4,153 nt of DNA, taken from positions 1-4,153 of IMG/VR virus record IMGVR_UViG_2703718873_000011. One strand, written 5' to 3'. This DNA comes from a virus (taxonomy: Duplodnaviria > Heunggongvirae > Uroviricota > Caudoviricetes). The position numbers were made by a program, and so were the translations under genes. Positions 1-4,153 of the stretch are shown piece by piece. The notes under the pieces were generated by a model. It was not told the origin of the DNA. It did not search any database and saw nothing but the letters and a program-made list of their open reading frames with translations. Position 1 is the first letter of the stretch. Every line of letters starts with the position of its first letter.

Positions 1-1
1 C

Positions 2-277
2 CTGTTCATTGACGAAATGGCGCATCCGTTACAGCCGGTTCGTCTGTCCGGTGATGAACTTCACGGAGAAGATCCATATTACGTCCTGTACGTCACGCCG
101 CGTCAGTGGAATGACTGGTACACCTCGACGTCCGGTAAGGACTGGAACCAGATGATGGTTCGGGCCGTGAACCGTGCAAAAGGTTTTAATCATCCGCTGT
201 TCAAAGGTGAATGTGCGATGTGGCGCAATATCCTGGTTCGTAAGTATGCGGGTATTATAGCGCGGCGATTTTTTTGA
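2..277 (+). CDS. hypothetical protein, C-terminal fragment (5' end outside window)
   Basis: The frame is open from position 2 (codons L-F-I-D-E precede the ATG at 17 with no in-frame stop) to TGA at 275-277. Codon usage looks E. coli-like (CGT/CTG/CCG-rich). It converges on mom and is followed by a stem-loop at 313-347. No family recognised from sequence alone. Confidence 0.45.
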   Translation: MFIDEMAHPLQPVRLSGDELHGEDPYYVLYVTPRQWNDWYTSTSGKDWNQMMVRAVNRAKGFNHPLFKGECAMWRNILVRKYAGIIARRFF

Positions 278-338
278 TACCGATTTGCATTTCATTTGAT
301 ACCGCTGAAAAACGCCGATACGCAACTTATTTGATACT
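273..338. repeat. Four GATAC-core direct repeats in the intergenic region (TTTGATACC at 273-281 and 295-303, CCGATAC at 314-320, TTTGATAC at 330-337)
   Basis: Seen directly in sequence; spacings between GATAC cores are 22, 18 and 17 bp. The first copy overlaps the stop codon of the left-edge CDS. Function unknown (possible protein-binding sites). Confidence 0.3.
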
Positions 339-383: not shown

Positions 384-1121
384 TCATTCACTCTCTTTCA
401 AACCAGTTTTAACTGTTTGTGGTTTTGGGTAAGGCTGGACTTTGAATAGCTTTGTGTTGAGGCGTTTTCTGGCCCTCTTGTTCAGAAACCGGATGTAACG
501 AAACTGTCGGAACTTATGCACACTGGCTCTGTCGATATTAGCCCTCAGATGTTCACCTCGTTGTCCGCCTCGTTTAATGGCACTCCTGCAAATCTCGTGA
601 TACCACTCGCCATCAAGTTCATAGAATGTTGATTCATGGCTGCCTACATAATCAAAATTGCTTGCCTGATACACGACACCAAGACAGCCACAACGCTCAT
701 CTGCAAACGACTGAACCCACTGTACCTGCGGATAAAGCTGCCTGATTAGCTTGAGCGCGTAACTGATTGCCCTTGATTCGGAGTTTCTCGGCATACAGTC
801 ATGCATCCATAGCCGGTTAAGCTCCATATATTCTCGGTTCTGCGTACCCGTTACGACGCGTGCACCACTGTTTGGGTTAAGGGCGTAACCCCATTGCATT
901 ACGCCAACAAGTTCCCGTTCTGAAAATATACCCAGATGAAGGTAGGAATTATTTACGAAACGGTGGCTGTAATGTTTATTGACGATAACCAGTCTGGCCA
1001 GCCAGCAACTTATTGTCTCAACCCGCAACTCACGGGAGCCATAACCAACGATATTGTCGTTATAGCGAATAAGTTCAGGCGTGCTGATGATACGGGATGT
1101 GACTTGCTTTCTGTTCCCCAC
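384..1121 (-). CDS. mom: Mom-like DNA modification protein (phage Mu Mom family, adenine-modifying, GNAT-like)
   Basis: 245-aa ORF immediately downstream of, and overlapping by 47 nt, a Com-like zinc-finger gene, which is the com-mom operon architecture of phage Mu. Size is close to Mu Mom (about 231 aa). GTG start at 1121-1119 preceded by AAGGAAA 8 nt upstream. The family call rests mainly on context and size; I cannot verify residue-level identity to Mom without a search. Confidence 0.6.
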
Positions 1122-1275
1122 GACAGGATTTCCTTGTGTATGTGGGGTGCTCTGTGGCGCTCGGAGATGTGATTTGATTGAGGGTTTTACAGCGCGGACA
1201 TTTTACTTCCAGATAACTGAAACTGGCCCGTGCCAGTAGCTTATTGCAGTGTCGGCACCGTATGTTTCGATACAT
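1075..1275 (-). CDS. com: Com-like zinc-finger translational activator of mom
   Basis: 66-aa product [30 protein letters not shown]... with C-x2-C at residues 7/10 and C-x2-C at 26/29, matching the phage Mu Com pattern (IRCxxCNKLL ... CPRCK) as I recall it. ATG at 1275-1273 preceded by AGGAGG with 10-nt spacing. TGA stop at 1077-1075 lies inside mom. The TTG at 1320 that opens the track ORF is probably not the real start. Confidence 0.7.
1116..1147 (-). promoter_or_regulatory. Stem-loop sequestering the mom GTG start codon and RBS (candidate translation-inhibitory structure)
   Basis: On the minus-strand mRNA, CCCCAC (from 1147-1142) pairs with GUGGGG (1121-1116), where GUG is the mom start codon. 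The 20-nt loop carries the AAGGAAA Shine-Dalgarno and can form an inner stem (ACAAGG/CCUGU). Complementarity verified by eye; stability not computed. Confidence 0.4.
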
Positions 1276-1341: not shown

Positions 1342-1440
1342 TTCGATTTGTTTAATTGATACAACAAATAGATTTAAAAGTCATCAACAATGATTCAGGG
1401 CGGTGATTATTTACTTAAAGAAACGAAGAGTTAGGTGGTG

Positions 1441-1462
1441 AAAACGATCATAAAATGATCAT
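1441..1462. promoter_or_regulatory. Second pair of GATC sites in a near-symmetric AT-rich element (AAAACGATCATAAAATGATCATTTT)
   Basis: GATC at 1445-1448 and 1456-1459 within a GATCAT direct repeat flanked by A4/T4; a further GATC at 1492-1495. All in the com / zinc-ribbon intergenic region. Confidence 0.25.
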
Positions 1463-1504
1463 TTTATTGACTTTTTATACAGTGAAGGTAGGATCGCGCG
1501 TATA

Positions 1505-1573
1505 TGTAGTATGTTTCAAATCAACAGGATACTACATAAAAGGGAAACCCAGCATAGCTGGAACTATGCTGGG
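1505..1573 (-). terminator. Tandem perfect hairpins; on the minus strand the second is followed by a U-rich tract (terminator or insulator candidate, alternatively a structured sRNA or operator)
   Basis: Hairpin A: TGTAGTAT (1505-1512) / ATACTACA (1529-1536), 8-bp stem with 16-nt loop. Hairpin B: CCCAGCATAG (1548-1557) / CTATGCTGGG (1564-1573), perfect 10-bp stem with 6-nt loop. On the minus strand hairpin B is followed by UUUCCCUUUUAUG (complement of 1535-1547). Confidence 0.35.
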
Positions 1574-1681
1574 TCAATCTGTAAAAACTTGCATCAATGC
1601 TTTACTTCGAGCTCGTGGCGTATCCTATGATATTCCCCGGTCTCCTGTAAAGCAGAGATGCATAAAAAGGAGATCTTTATC

Positions 1682-1852
1682 ATGGATAAAGAGCCTGTTT
1701 GCCCTGCCTGTAAGACTCCCTTACAGCTCATCTATCGCCGTTCTCGATCTCAAAATGGCAAGACATACAAACCAAAAAATGCTTCCTGTTTCAGGATGCT
1801 GATATGTCCGGCCTGTTCTCCCCGGAGGGAAAATACACAAAACGTGCATTAA
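1682..1852 (+). CDS. Small zinc-ribbon protein (56 aa), putative DNA/RNA-binding regulator
   Basis: ATG at 1682 preceded by AAGGAG (1667-1672) with 9-nt spacing. Product MDKEPVCPACKTPLQLIYRRSRSQNGKTYKPKNASCFRMLICPACSP... has C-x2-C at 7/10 and C-x2-C at 42/45, plus Cys36. Stop TAA at 1850-1852. Transcribed divergently from com. The track ORF at 1658 starts 8 codons earlier with no RBS. Confidence 0.5.
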   Translation: MDKEPVCPACKTPLQLIYRRSRSQNGKTYKPKNASCFRMLICPACSPRRENTQNVH

Positions 1853-1861
1853 CAAATTCAC

Positions 1862-1881
1862 CCGGCAGGGAAACCTGCCGG
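1862..1881. terminator. Putative bidirectional terminator hairpin between convergent genes
   Basis: CCGGCAGG (1862-1869) + GAAA loop + CCTGCCGG (1874-1881), a perfect 8-bp GC-rich stem with tetraloop. It lies 10 nt after the zinc-ribbon stop on plus and 10 nt after the 81-aa ORF stop on minus. Downstream tracts are moderately U-rich on both strands (UCGGUAUUGUU / GUGAAUUUGUU). Confidence 0.45.
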
Positions 1882-1890
1882 TCGGTATTG

Positions 1891-2136
1891 TTACATCATA
1901 GTACCGTCAGTTCCGGGTTGAACCGGCTCTGGTTGCTCTACGGGTTGAGGCTCATTTTCCGTGCTGTTTTCAGCCGGAGAACGACCAACCATTCGGGCCA
2001 GCACTTCATCAACATATGCGTCGATTTGTGCCTCAAAATCCTTGCGAACCTGCGCCTTCAGCACGCGGTTCACTTCTTCAGAATAAAGTGCCTGTTTGAC
2101 AAGCTCTTCAGTAACCGTGCCTTTAATCTCTGGCAT
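1891..2136 (-). CDS. hypothetical small acidic protein (81 aa)
   Basis: ATG at 2136-2134 preceded by AAGGAG with 7-nt spacing; TAA stop at 1893-1891. The N-terminal 50 aa look helical and amphipathic; the C-terminal 30 aa are Pro/Glu/Gln-rich (PQPVEQPEPVQP) and likely disordered. No family recognised. Confidence 0.6.
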   Translation of the reverse strand: MPEIKGTVTEELVKQALYSEEVNRVLKAQVRKDFEAQIDAYVDEVLARMVGRSPAENSTENEPQPVEQPEPVQPGTDGTMM

Positions 2137-2171
2137 GAATATTCTCCTTTCCTTTTCTGGTTCACAAAAAA

Positions 2172-2351
2172 TTAAATCTGACCGGAGTCTTTCGGCTGCG
2201 GCATTACAGCACCGCTTTTTATCTTTTCCTCGGCAGCTGCATCAATTTTATTTCGAAAATAATTGCGAATAATTTTATAACCACCGCTGACAAGCAACAG
2301 ACAACAAACCACCGTGCAGAAATACAGCAGGCAGACGTTTATATATGTCAT
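2172..2351 (-). CDS. Small single-pass membrane peptide (59 aa), not in the supplied ORF track
   Basis: My own translation of the minus strand: ATG at 2351-2349, TAA at 2174-2172, product MTYINVCLLYFCTVVCCLLLVSGGYKIIRNYFRNKIDAAAEEKIKSGAVMPQPKDSGQI. One Cys-rich hydrophobic segment of about 22 residues is followed by a basic then acidic tail (positive-inside topology). GAGG lies 5 nt upstream of the ATG. It fills the otherwise empty 272-bp gap between the esterase gene and the 81-aa ORF. Confidence 0.4.
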   Translation of the reverse strand: MTYINVCLLYFCTVVCCLLLVSGGYKIIRNYFRNKIDAAAEEKIKSGAVMPQPKDSGQI

Positions 2352-2408
2352 ATAAGCCTCACTCTTATTAACTGATGTTACAGCCGGATAAATTCCCGGC
2401 CGTCACGA

Positions 2409-4153
2409 TTATGCCGCAGGGGTATTAACCTCAAGGACAACGCTCTCAAAAGACACGCCATAAGTTGCCCCTTTGGTGACATCTGTCAGTGTCAGCGTAT
2501 CTTTGGCAGGGGAAAGTGCATCTTTCACCATCTGGAATGCCTGGCCCGGAGTGCCATCCAGCACAGGCGTTACCTGGGCACTTCCCGCCGTAAACTTCAG
2601 GACAAGTGTATGCCACTGGTTATTGTAGGCTCCAAATGATCCCAGTTTCGTATTCCCCCCTGTTTTATGGTGCATCAGATTTAACTGGCCGCCTGTTGTC
2701 TGGAGATAATACGCCATCAGGAACGGTGTGCCTGTACCACTCATGGTTACACCTTCCGGGACCGTATCGGTGTGGAGGTAAATACCCAGAGCAAACTGGC
2801 CTTCTTTTACTTCACCTGACAGACGGAATTTACAGGTCAACTGACCACCATGCTTCAGAAGTTCACCGGCTGCATCAGTTCCATGGGTAAGCGTCCAGGT
2901 TTTTCCGCTTTGTTTGGATACGGTCAACGCTTTACCTTCGTCCGTCAGCTGGATTGTACCATCTGTAATTTTCCAGCCCTGAGCCGGGGCTTCTCCTGCT
3001 GATGCTTTAAGTGAAAGCAGCGTACGGAGTGACGGGGATGTCGGATGGGGGGACTCACTGCCTCCTGGCTGACTACCTGTCGGCGCTTCCGGTTTCCCAC
3101 CCGGCGCGGGCTGAGGCAGGGCTTCACCATCAGGGGCCACACCGGCAATAAATGCAGAGGTCAGACCTGCATATTTAAGAATTGCTGATGCAAAACGATC
3201 TGAGACCAGAAAACGGCGCGCCCAGGAGCTAAAATGGGTTGCCCTGGATGCTGTTGTCCAGTTGCCATCTCCCCGTGATTCCGCACCATAATACCCGGCA
3301 GAAGCGATATCCGGGTCGTGCTCCGGCAGGTTGGTCGCGGTTTTATTACCGAACTCATCGTGCATCAGTGGAACAAAGTGAATGTTCTCGGAAGCCCGGT
3401 TTTTATATCCGCTATAAATGGTTTCATATGCCGCCGGGTTCTTCTCTTTCCAGTCATAGGTTGTGTCACCACATAACCACGGCACACTGTCTGATGAACC
3501 ACCAATACACTGACCGGAGAAAGCACCAAGATCCGCACGGAATTTTTTCACCATCGCAGTAAACTGGGCACCATGCTGGGCCGGGGTCGCTTTAAGGTCT
3601 CCTTCCCCCTGAATCCATACGACAGATAACAGCACATTCTTTGGATTCGCCTCAAGTGCCGCTTTAGTTCGACTGACAAGATCCTGATACAGTGGGGTAT
3701 CCACTCCCCAGCGTAGTGACGCCTCGGCTGCACCACTTGCCGGATCGAATGAGCCAACTGCGCCGGTTGTAAAAGCAGAGCCGCCACGGGCACAGGGAAC
3801 CAGTAAAATCCCGGCATCAGCAGGAATCACCGGTAATACTTTTTTCGCAATATGAAGTCCCTGCCCCACACAACCATACTGCCCTTTTTTCAGGTCTGCT
3901 TTTGGATGGTTCAGCAGACTCATATTCTGAACATCATGAAGGCAGTGATCTGCTGGAATGATTTCATTGTATTTGCAGGGAATACCTCCGGGGGTTTGTG
4001 TATTCCTGCGTGCCAGCTGCATAATACGTGGATCAGGACGATCATAAGAATCCGGAAGGGGCAACCCTTCACCATAAGATGAAGCATTGGACTGGCCGGC
4101 TATAACAATCACGTAATACCAGGAAGGGGAGCTGGAAGCAGTTTCATTTCCTG
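2409..4153 (-). CDS. SGNH/SASA-family carbohydrate O-acetylesterase, prophage NanS-p-like (partial; N-terminus outside window), with C-terminal beta-rich putative carbohydrate-binding domain
   Basis: The frame stays open upstream of the GTG at 4112 to the window edge (…GNETASSSPSWYYVIVIAGQSNA…). The GQSN motif after a hydrophobic beta-strand is the block-I signature of SASA/DUF303 sialate O-acetylesterases. A Pro/Ser/Gly-rich linker (PQPAPGGKPEAPTGSQPGGSESPHPTSPS) precedes a C-terminal domain of about 200 aa. At least 581 aa are visible, consistent with prophage NanS-p proteins of roughly 645 aa that carry an extra N-terminal domain (from memory). TAA stop at 2411-2409. Confidence 0.8.
   Translation of the reverse strand, partial: GNETASSSPSWYYVIVIAGQSNASSYGEGLPLPDSYDRPDPRIMQLARRNTQTPGGIPCKYNEIIPADHCLHDVQNMSLLNHPKADLKKGQYGCVGQGLHIAKKVLPVIPADAGILLVPCARGGSAFTTGAVGSFDPASGAAEASLRWGVDTPLYQDLVSRTKAALEANPKNVLLSVVWIQGEGDLKATPAQHGAQFTAMVKKFRADLGAFSGQCIGGSSDSVPWLCGDTTYDWKEKNPAAYETIYSGYKNRASENIHFVPLMHDEFGNKTATNLPEHDPDIASAGYYGAESRGDGNWTTASRATHFSSWARRFLVSDRFASAILKYAGLTSAFIAGVAPDGEALPQPAPGGKPEAPTGSQPGGSESPHPTSPSLRTLLSLKASAGEAPAQGWKITDGTIQLTDEGKALTVSKQSGKTWTLTHGTDAAGELLKHGGQLTCKFRLSGEVKEGQFALGIYLHTDTVPEGVTMSGTGTPFLMAYYLQTTGGQLNLMHHKTGGNTKLGSFGAYNNQWHTLVLKFTAGSAQVTPVLDGTPGQAFQMVKDALSPAKDTLTLTDVTKGATYGVSFESVVLEVNTPAA

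What the first reader, a model, noticed from the sequence alone, without database searches (positions are those of the whole stretch)
1891..2351. Two-gene cassette: unannotated 59-aa Cys-rich membrane peptide followed by an 81-aa acidic protein
The 59-aa ORF is below the ORF-track length cut-off but has an ATG, an upstream GAGG and one strongly hydrophobic Cys-rich transmembrane segment (INVCLLYFCTVVCCLLLVSGGY) with a basic cytoplasmic tail. It is followed 35 bp later by an 81-aa protein with a strong RBS, an amphipathic helical N-terminus and an acidic Pro-rich tail. This small membrane plus small soluble pairing is typical of holin/antiholin-like, membrane toxin / antitoxin, or superinfection-exclusion modules. 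It sits where a lysis cassette (S, R, Rz) would follow a NanS-p gene in Stx-type prophages, but neither protein resembles lambda S or an endolysin.
Basis: partly seen in the sequence, partly recalled or inferred. Interest (0 to 1): 0.55.

Follow-up and report, generated by a model that had tools for sequence, protein, structure and literature searches.

The report
Two small phage genes after nanS-p
The two small genes are real and already catalogued (Pfam families DUF1378 and DUF826, function unknown); they follow the nanS-p esterase gene in hundreds of Shiga-toxin phages and, as here, in Mu-like prophages, and probably act late in infection at the inner membrane.

Summary
Observation confirmed. 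On the minus strand, a 59-aa ORF (2351..2172) and an 81-aa ORF (2136..1891) lie 35 nt apart, each with a Shine-Dalgarno site. Both are genuine genes: Pfam DUF1378 (E 9e-24) and DUF826 (E 3e-15), reading frames open in every allele examined, median dN/dS 0.19 and 0.25.

They are not unannotated. RefSeq already lists identical proteins.

The element is not an Stx-type prophage but the right end of a Mu-like prophage (gin, nanS-p, DUF1378, DUF826, com, mom), itself inserted into the major head gene of a 933W-type prophage. In lambdoid and Stx phages the same trio sits directly upstream of the pinholin gene S, so nothing is missing here.

DUF1378 is predicted to be a single-pass membrane peptide (N-terminus out, C-terminus in) with a conserved basic cytoplasmic helix. 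DUF826 is an acidic two-helix protein with a disordered tail.

Relatives also occur alone, in reversed order, or overlapping the last gene of a lysis cassette. No holin, antiholin, toxin-antitoxin or defence family matches.

Function remains untested. My best guess (about 0.35-0.4) is a late-expressed accessory pair that modulates lysis or release. The rivals are an exclusion moron or a NanS-p helper. Sequences already known; modest interest.

The parts
2172..2351 (-). DUF1378 gene, 59 aa. Predicted single-pass inner-membrane peptide, N-out/C-in: TM about residues 4-24, conserved SGGY-K.IR.Y...KID.AA.EK cytoplasmic helix, variable disordered tail.
   Evidence: Pfam PF07125 E 9.2e-24; phrog_494; identical to WP_000221106.1; frame open in 31/31 alleles, dN/dS 0.19; AF2 single helix 2-45; hydropathy and charge.
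2357..2360 (-). Shine-Dalgarno GAGG, 5 nt before the DUF1378 ATG.
   Evidence: Read from the sequence; SD-like motifs upstream in most alleles.
2137..2171 (-). 35-nt spacer holding the AAGGAG Shine-Dalgarno site (2149..2144) of the DUF826 gene. Also a recombination joint between alleles.
   Evidence: The spacer is 19-40 nt in 81 loci. Identity to L004 jumps from about 72% to 97% at about 2150.
1891..2136 (-). DUF826 gene, 81 aa. Acidic cytoplasmic protein: helix 10-17, long helix 20-50, disordered acidic Pro-rich tail ending in a conserved hydrophobic MM/ML.
   Evidence: Pfam PF05696 E 3.1e-15; phrog_311; identical to WP_001114107.1; frame open in 35/35 alleles, dN/dS 0.25; AF2 pLDDT above 90 for residues 20-50.
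2409..4153 (-). NanS-p-type sialate O-acetylesterase gene (SASA + DUF6645 domains), 5' end outside the window. First gene of the conserved nanS-p/DUF1378/DUF826 cassette.
   Evidence: Pfam. Upstream of DUF1378 in all 84 trio loci where the contig allows.
2352..2408 (-). 57-nt nanS-p/DUF1378 spacer with a hairpin. No promoter-like site, so co-transcription is likely.
   Evidence: Fold -17.5 kcal/mol, z -2.6; promoter scan found nothing on this strand.
1862..1881 (.). Perfect 8-bp GC-rich hairpin with a tetraloop, 9 nt after the DUF826 stop, between convergent genes. Possible bidirectional terminator.
   Evidence: Fold -21.2 kcal/mol, z -3.9, 0/200 shuffles. The tail is only moderately U-rich, so the terminator role is inferred.
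1546..1575 (-). Strong terminator-like hairpin (13-bp stem, UUUCCCUUUUAU tail) on the cassette's strand, about 320 nt downstream of DUF826.
   Evidence: Scan; fold -21.4 kcal/mol, z -6.4.

Best explanation
SHOWN. The two ORFs are genuine, co-oriented protein-coding genes, almost certainly co-transcribed, belonging to Pfam DUF1378 and DUF826. With the upstream nanS-p esterase gene they form a conserved three-gene cassette found in two unrelated phage backbones. In lambdoid and Stx phages it lies in the Q-dependent late operon just upstream of the pinholin gene S. In Mu-like prophages, as here, it lies between gin and com-mom.

PREDICTED FROM SEQUENCE AND MODELS. DUF1378 is a bitopic inner-membrane peptide, N-terminus out and C-terminus in. 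A face of small residues lines its TM helix (C12, C16, S22-G23-G24), and a conserved basic amphipathic helix lies on the cytoplasmic side. DUF826 is a cytoplasmic acidic two-helix protein with a disordered acidic tail.

INFERRED, about 0.35-0.4. The pair is a late-expressed accessory module acting at the cytoplasmic face of the inner membrane. The acidic DUF826 would dock on the basic juxtamembrane helix of DUF1378, on the similarly basic cytoplasmic tails of holins, or on both. This would tune when the membrane is permeabilised, and hence when cytoplasmic cargo that lacks a signal peptide (NanS-p, and Stx in Stx phages) is released. On this reading it works like an antiholin or lysis-timing pair. 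It is not itself the holin-endolysin system, nor a toxin-antitoxin.
For: Genes are real.

Cassette synteny: 49 lambdoid and 34 Mu-like loci all read nanS-p, DUF1378, DUF826. A divergent trio sits in L086 and a trio next to a Phage_holin_2_3 holin in L090. Phage database counts are 347 (NanS-p), 309 (DUF1378) and 306 (DUF826) records.

The pair is linked independently of nanS-p: seven loci carry Tfa, DUF826, DUF1378, Dam, in reversed order and with no esterase.

Lysis link:
- In six loci the DUF1378 ATG overlaps (ATGA) the stop of the last gene of an S21-holin, SAR-endolysin, spanin-like cassette.
- Short DUF826 homologues lie directly after Rz in 36/54 loci, and downstream of three different holin families.

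Late expression:
- No promoter-like site between nanS-p and DUF1378.
- Hairpins close the cassette.
- nanS-p rises 1-2.4 log on mitomycin C (PMC10462455).

NanS-p N-termini show no signal peptide (read).

Charge complementarity: pI 8.8 against 4.4. Structure.
Against: No experiment exists for either family; only one paper mentions them, as unknowns.

Every position they occupy is also a classical moron hot-spot: between Q and S, after Rz, after the tail-fibre assembly gene, and at the Mu right end. Context alone therefore cannot prove a lysis role.

In the Mu-like setting of this window the pair is far from the lysis genes.

Phages 434 and YYZ-2008 carry nanS-p and an S21 pinholin without the pair, and no remnants remain, so the pair is dispensable for lysis.

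Each gene also occurs alone.

Alleles of the two genes reassort freely, with joints at gene boundaries, so no allele-specific co-evolution is visible.

There is no similarity to T4 RIII or to any holin family.

Confidence: 0.38

Rival explanations
1. Moron or lysogenic-conversion genes. The membrane peptide, with or without its soluble partner, acts on the host envelope to exclude superinfecting phages or otherwise benefit the lysogen, unrelated to lysis.
For: All contexts are known moron insertion sites. These include Tfa, DUF1378, then a convergent O-antigen-type acyltransferase, then Dam, and the stx/nanS-p region. The short DUF826 gene is preceded by a 166-nt spacer with a hairpin and a palindrome, which suggests its own regulation. 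Distribution is narrow: nearly all hits carrying a source name are Escherichia or Shigella, the one-genome-per-species scan found only Cedecea neteri, and there are only 60 clusters at 50% identity among 1.84 billion proteins. Small single-pass membrane proteins such as HK97 gp15 do mediate exclusion (general knowledge).
Against: No promoter-like site lies ahead of DUF1378 in the window. In six loci it is translationally coupled to a spanin-like gene. There is no PADLOC match. Selection is purifying rather than diversifying.
Confidence: 0.25
2. NanS-p helpers. The pair serves the esterase specifically, for example by tethering it to the membrane, releasing it, or regulating it.
For: The order nanS-p, DUF1378, DUF826 is invariant in 84 loci across two phage backbones despite about 50% protein divergence. 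The phage database counts nearly match.
Against: About 38 phage records, including 434 and YYZ-2008, have nanS-p without the pair. The window's own NanS-p core is closest (62%) to that pair-less type. DUF1378, DUF826 and the reversed pair all occur with no esterase nearby. Alleles reassort at gene boundaries. Recombinant NanS-p is reported to be active on its own (general knowledge, not checked here).
Confidence: 0.12
3. Membrane toxin plus antitoxin. DUF1378 would be a Hok- or TisB-like depolarising peptide and DUF826 its neutraliser.
For: Small hydrophobic peptide next to a small acidic soluble protein.
Against: The gene order is unusual for a protein antitoxin. Each gene is often found alone. 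No antisense RNA or Rfam match was found. There is an ordinary SD site and operon position behind a 2-kb enzyme gene. No toxin-antitoxin or defence profile matches.
Confidence: 0.04

Closest known systems
Pfam DUF1378 (PF07125) / PHROG 494 and Pfam DUF826 (PF05696) / PHROG 311: the ORFs between nanS-p and S of Stx phages (933W, VT2-Sakai)
   Same: Direct members. The window proteins score well above the gathering cut-offs, are identical to RefSeq proteins, and share order, spacing and upstream nanS-p with more than 300 Stx and lambdoid phage records (PMC10462455).
   Different: Here the cassette sits in a Mu-like prophage and is followed by com-mom rather than by S-R-Rz. The proteins share only 39-48% identity with the Stx2-phage versions.
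T4 RI / RIII antiholin pair
   Same: Architecture only: a small membrane-anchored protein plus a cytoplasmic helical protein of about 80 aa, encoded by a phage and, in T4, tuning the holin.
   Different: No homology: hhalign of the DUF826 profile against RIII gives probability 0.08%. The soluble domain of RI is periplasmic, whereas the DUF1378 tail is predicted to be cytoplasmic. No functional data exist.
Holins (generic definition), including the S21 pinholin
   Same: Small size, at least one TM segment, charged C-terminal tail, and location in or beside lysis cassettes in relatives.
   Different: No holin Pfam or PHROG match. A bona fide holin is already present next to it in lambdoid relatives. 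No endolysin gene is nearby in this window.
Exclusion morons encoding small inner-membrane proteins (e.g. HK97 gp15; the P2 Z/fun position)
   Same: A small single-pass membrane protein at the end of a tail-fibre or late operon, in prophages.
   Different: No sequence relation, no own promoter detected, and exclusion untested.

Membership tests
Pfam DUF1378 (PF07125) | Profile score above the gathering cut-off over the whole domain | tested here: met
   83.8 bits against 25, residues 1-48 of the 59-position profile; phrog_494 E 4e-29.
Pfam DUF1378 (PF07125) | Peptide of about 50-70 aa with an N-terminal TM helix and the conserved SGGY...R.Y...KID.AA.EK motif | tested here: met
   Alignments A2 and A4: invariant S22 G23 G24 Y25 R29 I36 D37 A40 E42 K43.
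Pfam DUF826 (PF05696) | Profile score above the gathering cut-off | tested here: met
   56.5 bits against 25; phrog_311 E 5e-30.
nanS-p / DUF1378 / DUF826 cassette of Stx and lambdoid phages | Same three genes, same order and strand, short spacers | tested here: met
   84 loci; spacers of 19-40 nt.
Holin | Small protein with at least one TM segment and a charged hydrophilic C-terminus | tested here: met
   These criteria are very permissive.
Holin | Belongs to a recognised holin sequence family | tested here: not met
   Only DUF1378 matches in Pfam, and the PHROG has unknown function.
Holin | Gene adjacent to an endolysin gene | tested here: not met
   The window neighbours are nanS-p, com and mom. 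In relatives a separate S21 holin is present. In six loci DUF1378 follows the spanin-like gene.
Holin | Forms lethal membrane lesions at a set time | not testable with these tools
   Needs expression experiments.
T4 RIII-type cytoplasmic antiholin | Sequence or profile similarity to RIII | tested here: not met
   hhalign probability 0.08%, E 0.64.
T4 RIII-type cytoplasmic antiholin | Binds a holin's cytoplasmic domain and delays lysis | not testable with these tools
   No multimer modelling or experiment was available.
Type I toxin-antitoxin (Hok/TisB-like) | Overlapping or antisense regulatory RNA and stand-alone locus organisation | tested here: not met
   No Rfam family matches. Promoter-like sites are at chance level. 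The gene lies in an operon behind nanS-p.
Known anti-phage defence systems (PADLOC) | Match to a defence-system profile | tested here: not met
   0 families at E up to 0.1 for both proteins.

The most novel reading that the evidence does not exclude
DUF1378 and DUF826 together form a previously unrecognised class of lysis or release regulator: a bitopic membrane adaptor plus an acidic cytoplasmic cofactor. It would be carried by most Stx phages and by Mu-like and P2-like prophages, and would set when pinholin/SAR-endolysin lysis fires, and so when Shiga toxin and NanS-p are released.
Probability: 0.25. Interest if true: 0.6.

Novelty: already known. Interest (0 to 1): 0.33.

Why it matters
These two genes sit immediately before the lysis genes in more than 300 sequenced Shiga-toxin phages and have never been studied. 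If they tune lysis timing they would affect how much toxin and esterase an induced STEC population releases.

Two results narrow the hypotheses and point to simple deletion experiments. First, the nanS-p/DUF1378/DUF826 cassette is shared with Mu-like prophages. Second, the two small genes also occur together in reversed order, or fused onto lysis cassettes, without nanS-p.

As it stands, the finding is a correct sighting of two annotated genes of unknown function.

Tried and rejected
- NCBIfam and PADLOC scans: no hits.
- PDB sequence search with both family profiles: nothing below E 0.08.
- Foldseek of the DUF826 model against the PDB: nothing. A helix pair is uninformative.
- Rfam scan of the window: only chance-level hits.
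- Literature searches by locus tag (L0106, Z1467, ECs1208...), by peptide strings and by 'NanS-p' plus 'Mu-like': nothing relevant.
- Apparent DUF1378-DUF826 fusion proteins (P0142, P0161, P0164) are frameshift or read-through gene calls, not real fusions.
- Exhaustive HMMER hits of DUF826 to a 4219-aa tail-fibre-repeat protein and to two other repeat proteins are sums of 4-8-bit matches to repeated units. I judged them spurious.
- The long antisense ORF 1804..2175(+) over DUF826 is not conserved: that frame is open in 14/35 alleles.
- T4 RIII homology: rejected.
- Remnants of the pair in the nanS-p-to-S gap of phages 434 and YYZ-2008: none.

Full report
**1. What is in the sequence**

The finding's coordinates span two minus-strand ORFs. 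The first is 59 aa (2351..2172): ATG start, GAGG five nt upstream. The second is 81 aa (2136..1891): ATG start, AAGGAG seven nt upstream. They are 35 nt apart.

Segment 4-22 of the 59-aa protein has a mean hydropathy of 2.46. The flank after that segment is basic (+3) while the four N-terminal residues are uncharged, so the positive-inside rule predicts an N-out/C-in bitopic topology. The 81-aa protein has pI 4.4, seven prolines, and a tail with net charge -5.

AlphaFold models built from family alignments agree. The 59-aa protein is one long helix (residues 2-45) with a disordered tail. The 81-aa protein has helices 10-17 and 20-50 (pLDDT above 90) followed by a disordered tail.

**2. Are they genes?**

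An ORF of this size is not evidence in itself: the window has 44 ORFs of 30 aa or more. These two are nevertheless real.
- They match Pfam DUF1378 (83.8 bits) and DUF826 (56.5 bits), both against a cut-off of 25, and PHROGs 494 and 311.
- Among loci fetched from public collections, the sense frame is uninterrupted in all 31 and 35 distinct nucleotide alleles. The antisense frame is open in only 2 and 14 of them.
- Every informative pairwise dN/dS is below 1, with medians 0.19 and 0.25.

RefSeq already annotates identical proteins, WP_000221106.1 and WP_001114107.1. 'Unannotated' is therefore wrong in general. It does hold for older records such as VT2-Sakai. There the DUF1378 ORF is missing and the DUF826 gene is over-extended to 139 aa.

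Of the four cysteines, only C12 and C16 recur in the family, and both are replaceable by Ser.

**3. Where the window comes from**

Downstream on the same strand lie com (1275..1075) and mom (1121..384; Pfam Mom, E 8e-77). Upstream is a NanS-p-type esterase with SASA and DUF6645 domains.

In complete genomes the order is tail fibre, gin-type invertase, nanS-p, DUF1378, DUF826, com, mom, then host DNA. This is the right end of a Mu-like prophage.

All alignments to such prophages stop at about position 256. Window 1-255 is 99.6% identical to the major head gene of 933W and VT2-Sakai (Pfam Phage_capsid_3). So the window is the junction of a Mu-like prophage that has inserted into the capsid gene of an Stx-type prophage. 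GenBank records LC727881 and LC727895 describe comparable insertions.

**4. The cassette in other phages**

In lambdoid and Stx phages the same three genes lie in the late operon: Q, (stx), nanS-p, DUF1378, DUF826, pinholin S, R, Rz. The one paper that mentions these DUFs says only that such ORFs occur between nanS-p and S (PMC10462455).

I fetched 84 loci through DUF1378. Of these, 49 are lambdoid and 34 Mu-like, and all show nanS-p, DUF1378, DUF826 wherever the contig reaches.

Two further cases show the same arrangement. L086 is a divergent trio in a Mu-like prophage. L090 is a trio next to a different holin family, Phage_holin_2_3.

Among 50,697 phage records, NanS-p is found in 347, DUF1378 in 309 and DUF826 in 306.

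DNA identity between the Mu-like and lambdoid versions is only about 66% at best. Alleles reassort with joints at gene boundaries. Against L004, identity rises from about 72% to 97% at position 2150, inside the 35-nt spacer. Against L009, the change comes at 2329. The cassette is therefore old, mosaic, and repeatedly exchanged between the two phage types.

**5. The pair is not tied exclusively to nanS-p, nor the two genes to each other**
- Phages 434 and YYZ-2008, and about 38 records in all, have nanS-p followed by about 450 nt of non-coding DNA and then the pinholin gene. No remnants of the pair remain.
- The window's own NanS-p core is closest (62%) to this pair-less type.
- DUF1378 occurs alone between a tail-fibre or tail-fibre-assembly gene and a Dam methylase, in Cedecea neteri and at least 16 other loci.
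- A short DUF826 subfamily (about 60 aa, no acidic tail) occurs without DUF1378.
- Seven loci carry Tfa, DUF826, DUF1378, Dam. There the two genes are adjacent but in reversed order, and no esterase is present.

Adjacency kept through a change of order and context is the best evidence here that the two genes work together.

**6. Links to lysis**

Short DUF826 genes lie directly after the Rz spanin gene in 36 of 54 loci. Lysis genes lie within 2.5 kb upstream in 41 of 54. These cassettes use three different holin families (HP1-type, lambda-S-type, holin_8) and two endolysin types, and a terminase gene follows.

In six loci a 50-aa DUF1378 gene starts with an ATG that overlaps the stop codon (ATGA) of the last gene of an S21-holin, SAR-endolysin, spanin-like cassette. 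An AGGAG sits inside that upstream gene, which implies translational coupling.

In the window, no promoter-like site separates nanS-p from DUF1378. A -21 kcal/mol hairpin follows the DUF826 stop, and a stronger U-tailed terminator lies 320 nt further on. In Stx2a phages nanS-p rises 1-2.4 log on mitomycin C induction. The pair is thus most likely expressed late, together with nanS-p.

NanS-p N-termini show no signal peptide (sequences), so the esterase depends on envelope disruption to leave the cell.

**7. Mechanism, and how sure**

Shown:
- The genes are real and belong to the two families.
- The cassette is conserved, and operon-like organisation is likely.

Predicted from sequence and models: the N-out/C-in membrane peptide and the acidic helical partner.

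Inferred, about 0.38: the pair is a late accessory module at the cytoplasmic face of the inner membrane that tunes lysis or release. DUF826 would bind the basic helix of DUF1378, the basic tails of holins, or both.

The main weakness is that every location these genes occupy is also a known moron hot-spot. In addition, phages without the pair lyse normally, and in this Mu-like prophage the pair is far from the lysis genes.

Rivals:
- Exclusion or lysogenic-conversion moron, about 0.25.
- NanS-p helper, about 0.12.
- Toxin-antitoxin, about 0.04.

**8. Comparison with known systems**

Membership of DUF1378 and DUF826 is established. The generic holin criteria are met only in their permissive part (size, TM segment, charged tail). 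There is no holin-family match and no adjacent endolysin here.

The T4 RI/RIII pair is an analogy only: the DUF826 profile against RIII gives an hhalign probability of 0.08%. There are no PADLOC, NCBIfam, Rfam, PDB-sequence or fold matches.

The DUF826 family is tiny, with 60 clusters at 50% identity among 1.84 billion proteins. Nearly all hits that carry a source name are from Escherichia or Shigella. A scan of one genome per species found only Cedecea neteri.

**9. Verdict**

Function is still unknown.

What the context analysis adds: a cassette shared between lambdoid and Mu-like phages, reversed-order pairs without nanS-p, and DUF1378 coupled to lysis cassettes. This makes a lysis or release role the leading testable hypothesis.

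Interest is modest (0.33). If the lysis-regulator reading proved true it would deserve about 0.6.

Noticed in passing
window 1-256: Positions 1-255 are 99.6% identical to the major head protein gene of 933W (L0116) and VT2-Sakai, and the Mu-like prophage homology begins at about 256. So a Mu-like prophage has inserted into, and disrupted, the capsid gene of an Stx-type prophage. None of the best-listed complete E. coli genome matches extends left of about 240, so this insertion site was not seen among them.
   Followed up: yes
window 273-338: Three direct copies of TTTGATAC(C/T) just inside the prophage end, plausibly transposase-binding repeats of the Mu-like right end.
   Followed up: no
window 2409-4153 (-) and L001:9994-12012: NanS-p of Mu-like prophages carries its own N-terminal domain of about 95-105 aa (no Pfam match) in place of the DUF1737 domain of lambdoid NanS-p. 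The catalytic and C-terminal parts are mosaic: the window's is closest to the phage 434 type (62%), L004's to the Sakai type (75%). An N-terminal domain specific to phage type, joined to exchangeable enzymatic parts, recalls tail-fibre and tailspike modularity. No open paper mentions both NanS-p and Mu-like phages.
   Followed up: partly
window 1390-1852 (+), especially 1658-1852: A convergent 64-aa zinc-ribbon ORF (CxxC...CxxC) lies within what RefSeq calls a frameshifted hypothetical gene. It is 97-100% conserved in many Mu-like loci and absent from others. It shares the 1862-1881 hairpin with the DUF826 gene.
   Followed up: partly
window 384-1275 (-); L004:7237-8289: com-mom at the prophage end. 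In some otherwise near-identical Mu-like prophages (L004, L023, L063, L065) mom is replaced by a C5-cytosine-methyltransferase-like gene. In the P2/Mu-like relatives that carry DUF1378 alone, a Dam methylase occupies this position.
   Followed up: partly
L002 (VT2-Sakai NC_000902) 4001-4466; PhiR12 phages; phiXuzhou21: Annotation problems in public records. The DUF1378 ORF is not annotated in VT2-Sakai. The DUF826 gene is over-extended there to a 139-aa 'orf43' that overlaps DUF1378 in another frame. In several recent records DUF826 is labelled 'head completion protein', with no support found here.
   Followed up: yes
L095:5760-6000 and L087:1-206: The 166-nt spacer between Rz and the short DUF826 gene holds a GC-rich hairpin and a conserved palindrome (GTAACCAGACG.TAAAAACTGGTAC), possibly an operator or promoter region for that gene.
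   Followed up: no
all DUF826 alleles of the trio type (alignment A3): The otherwise variable acidic tail always ends in a hydrophobic dipeptide or tripeptide (TMM, MMM, TML, MML) preceded by an acidic or Pro-Gly motif. The short subfamily lacks this tail. It may be a short docking or degradation motif.
   Followed up: no
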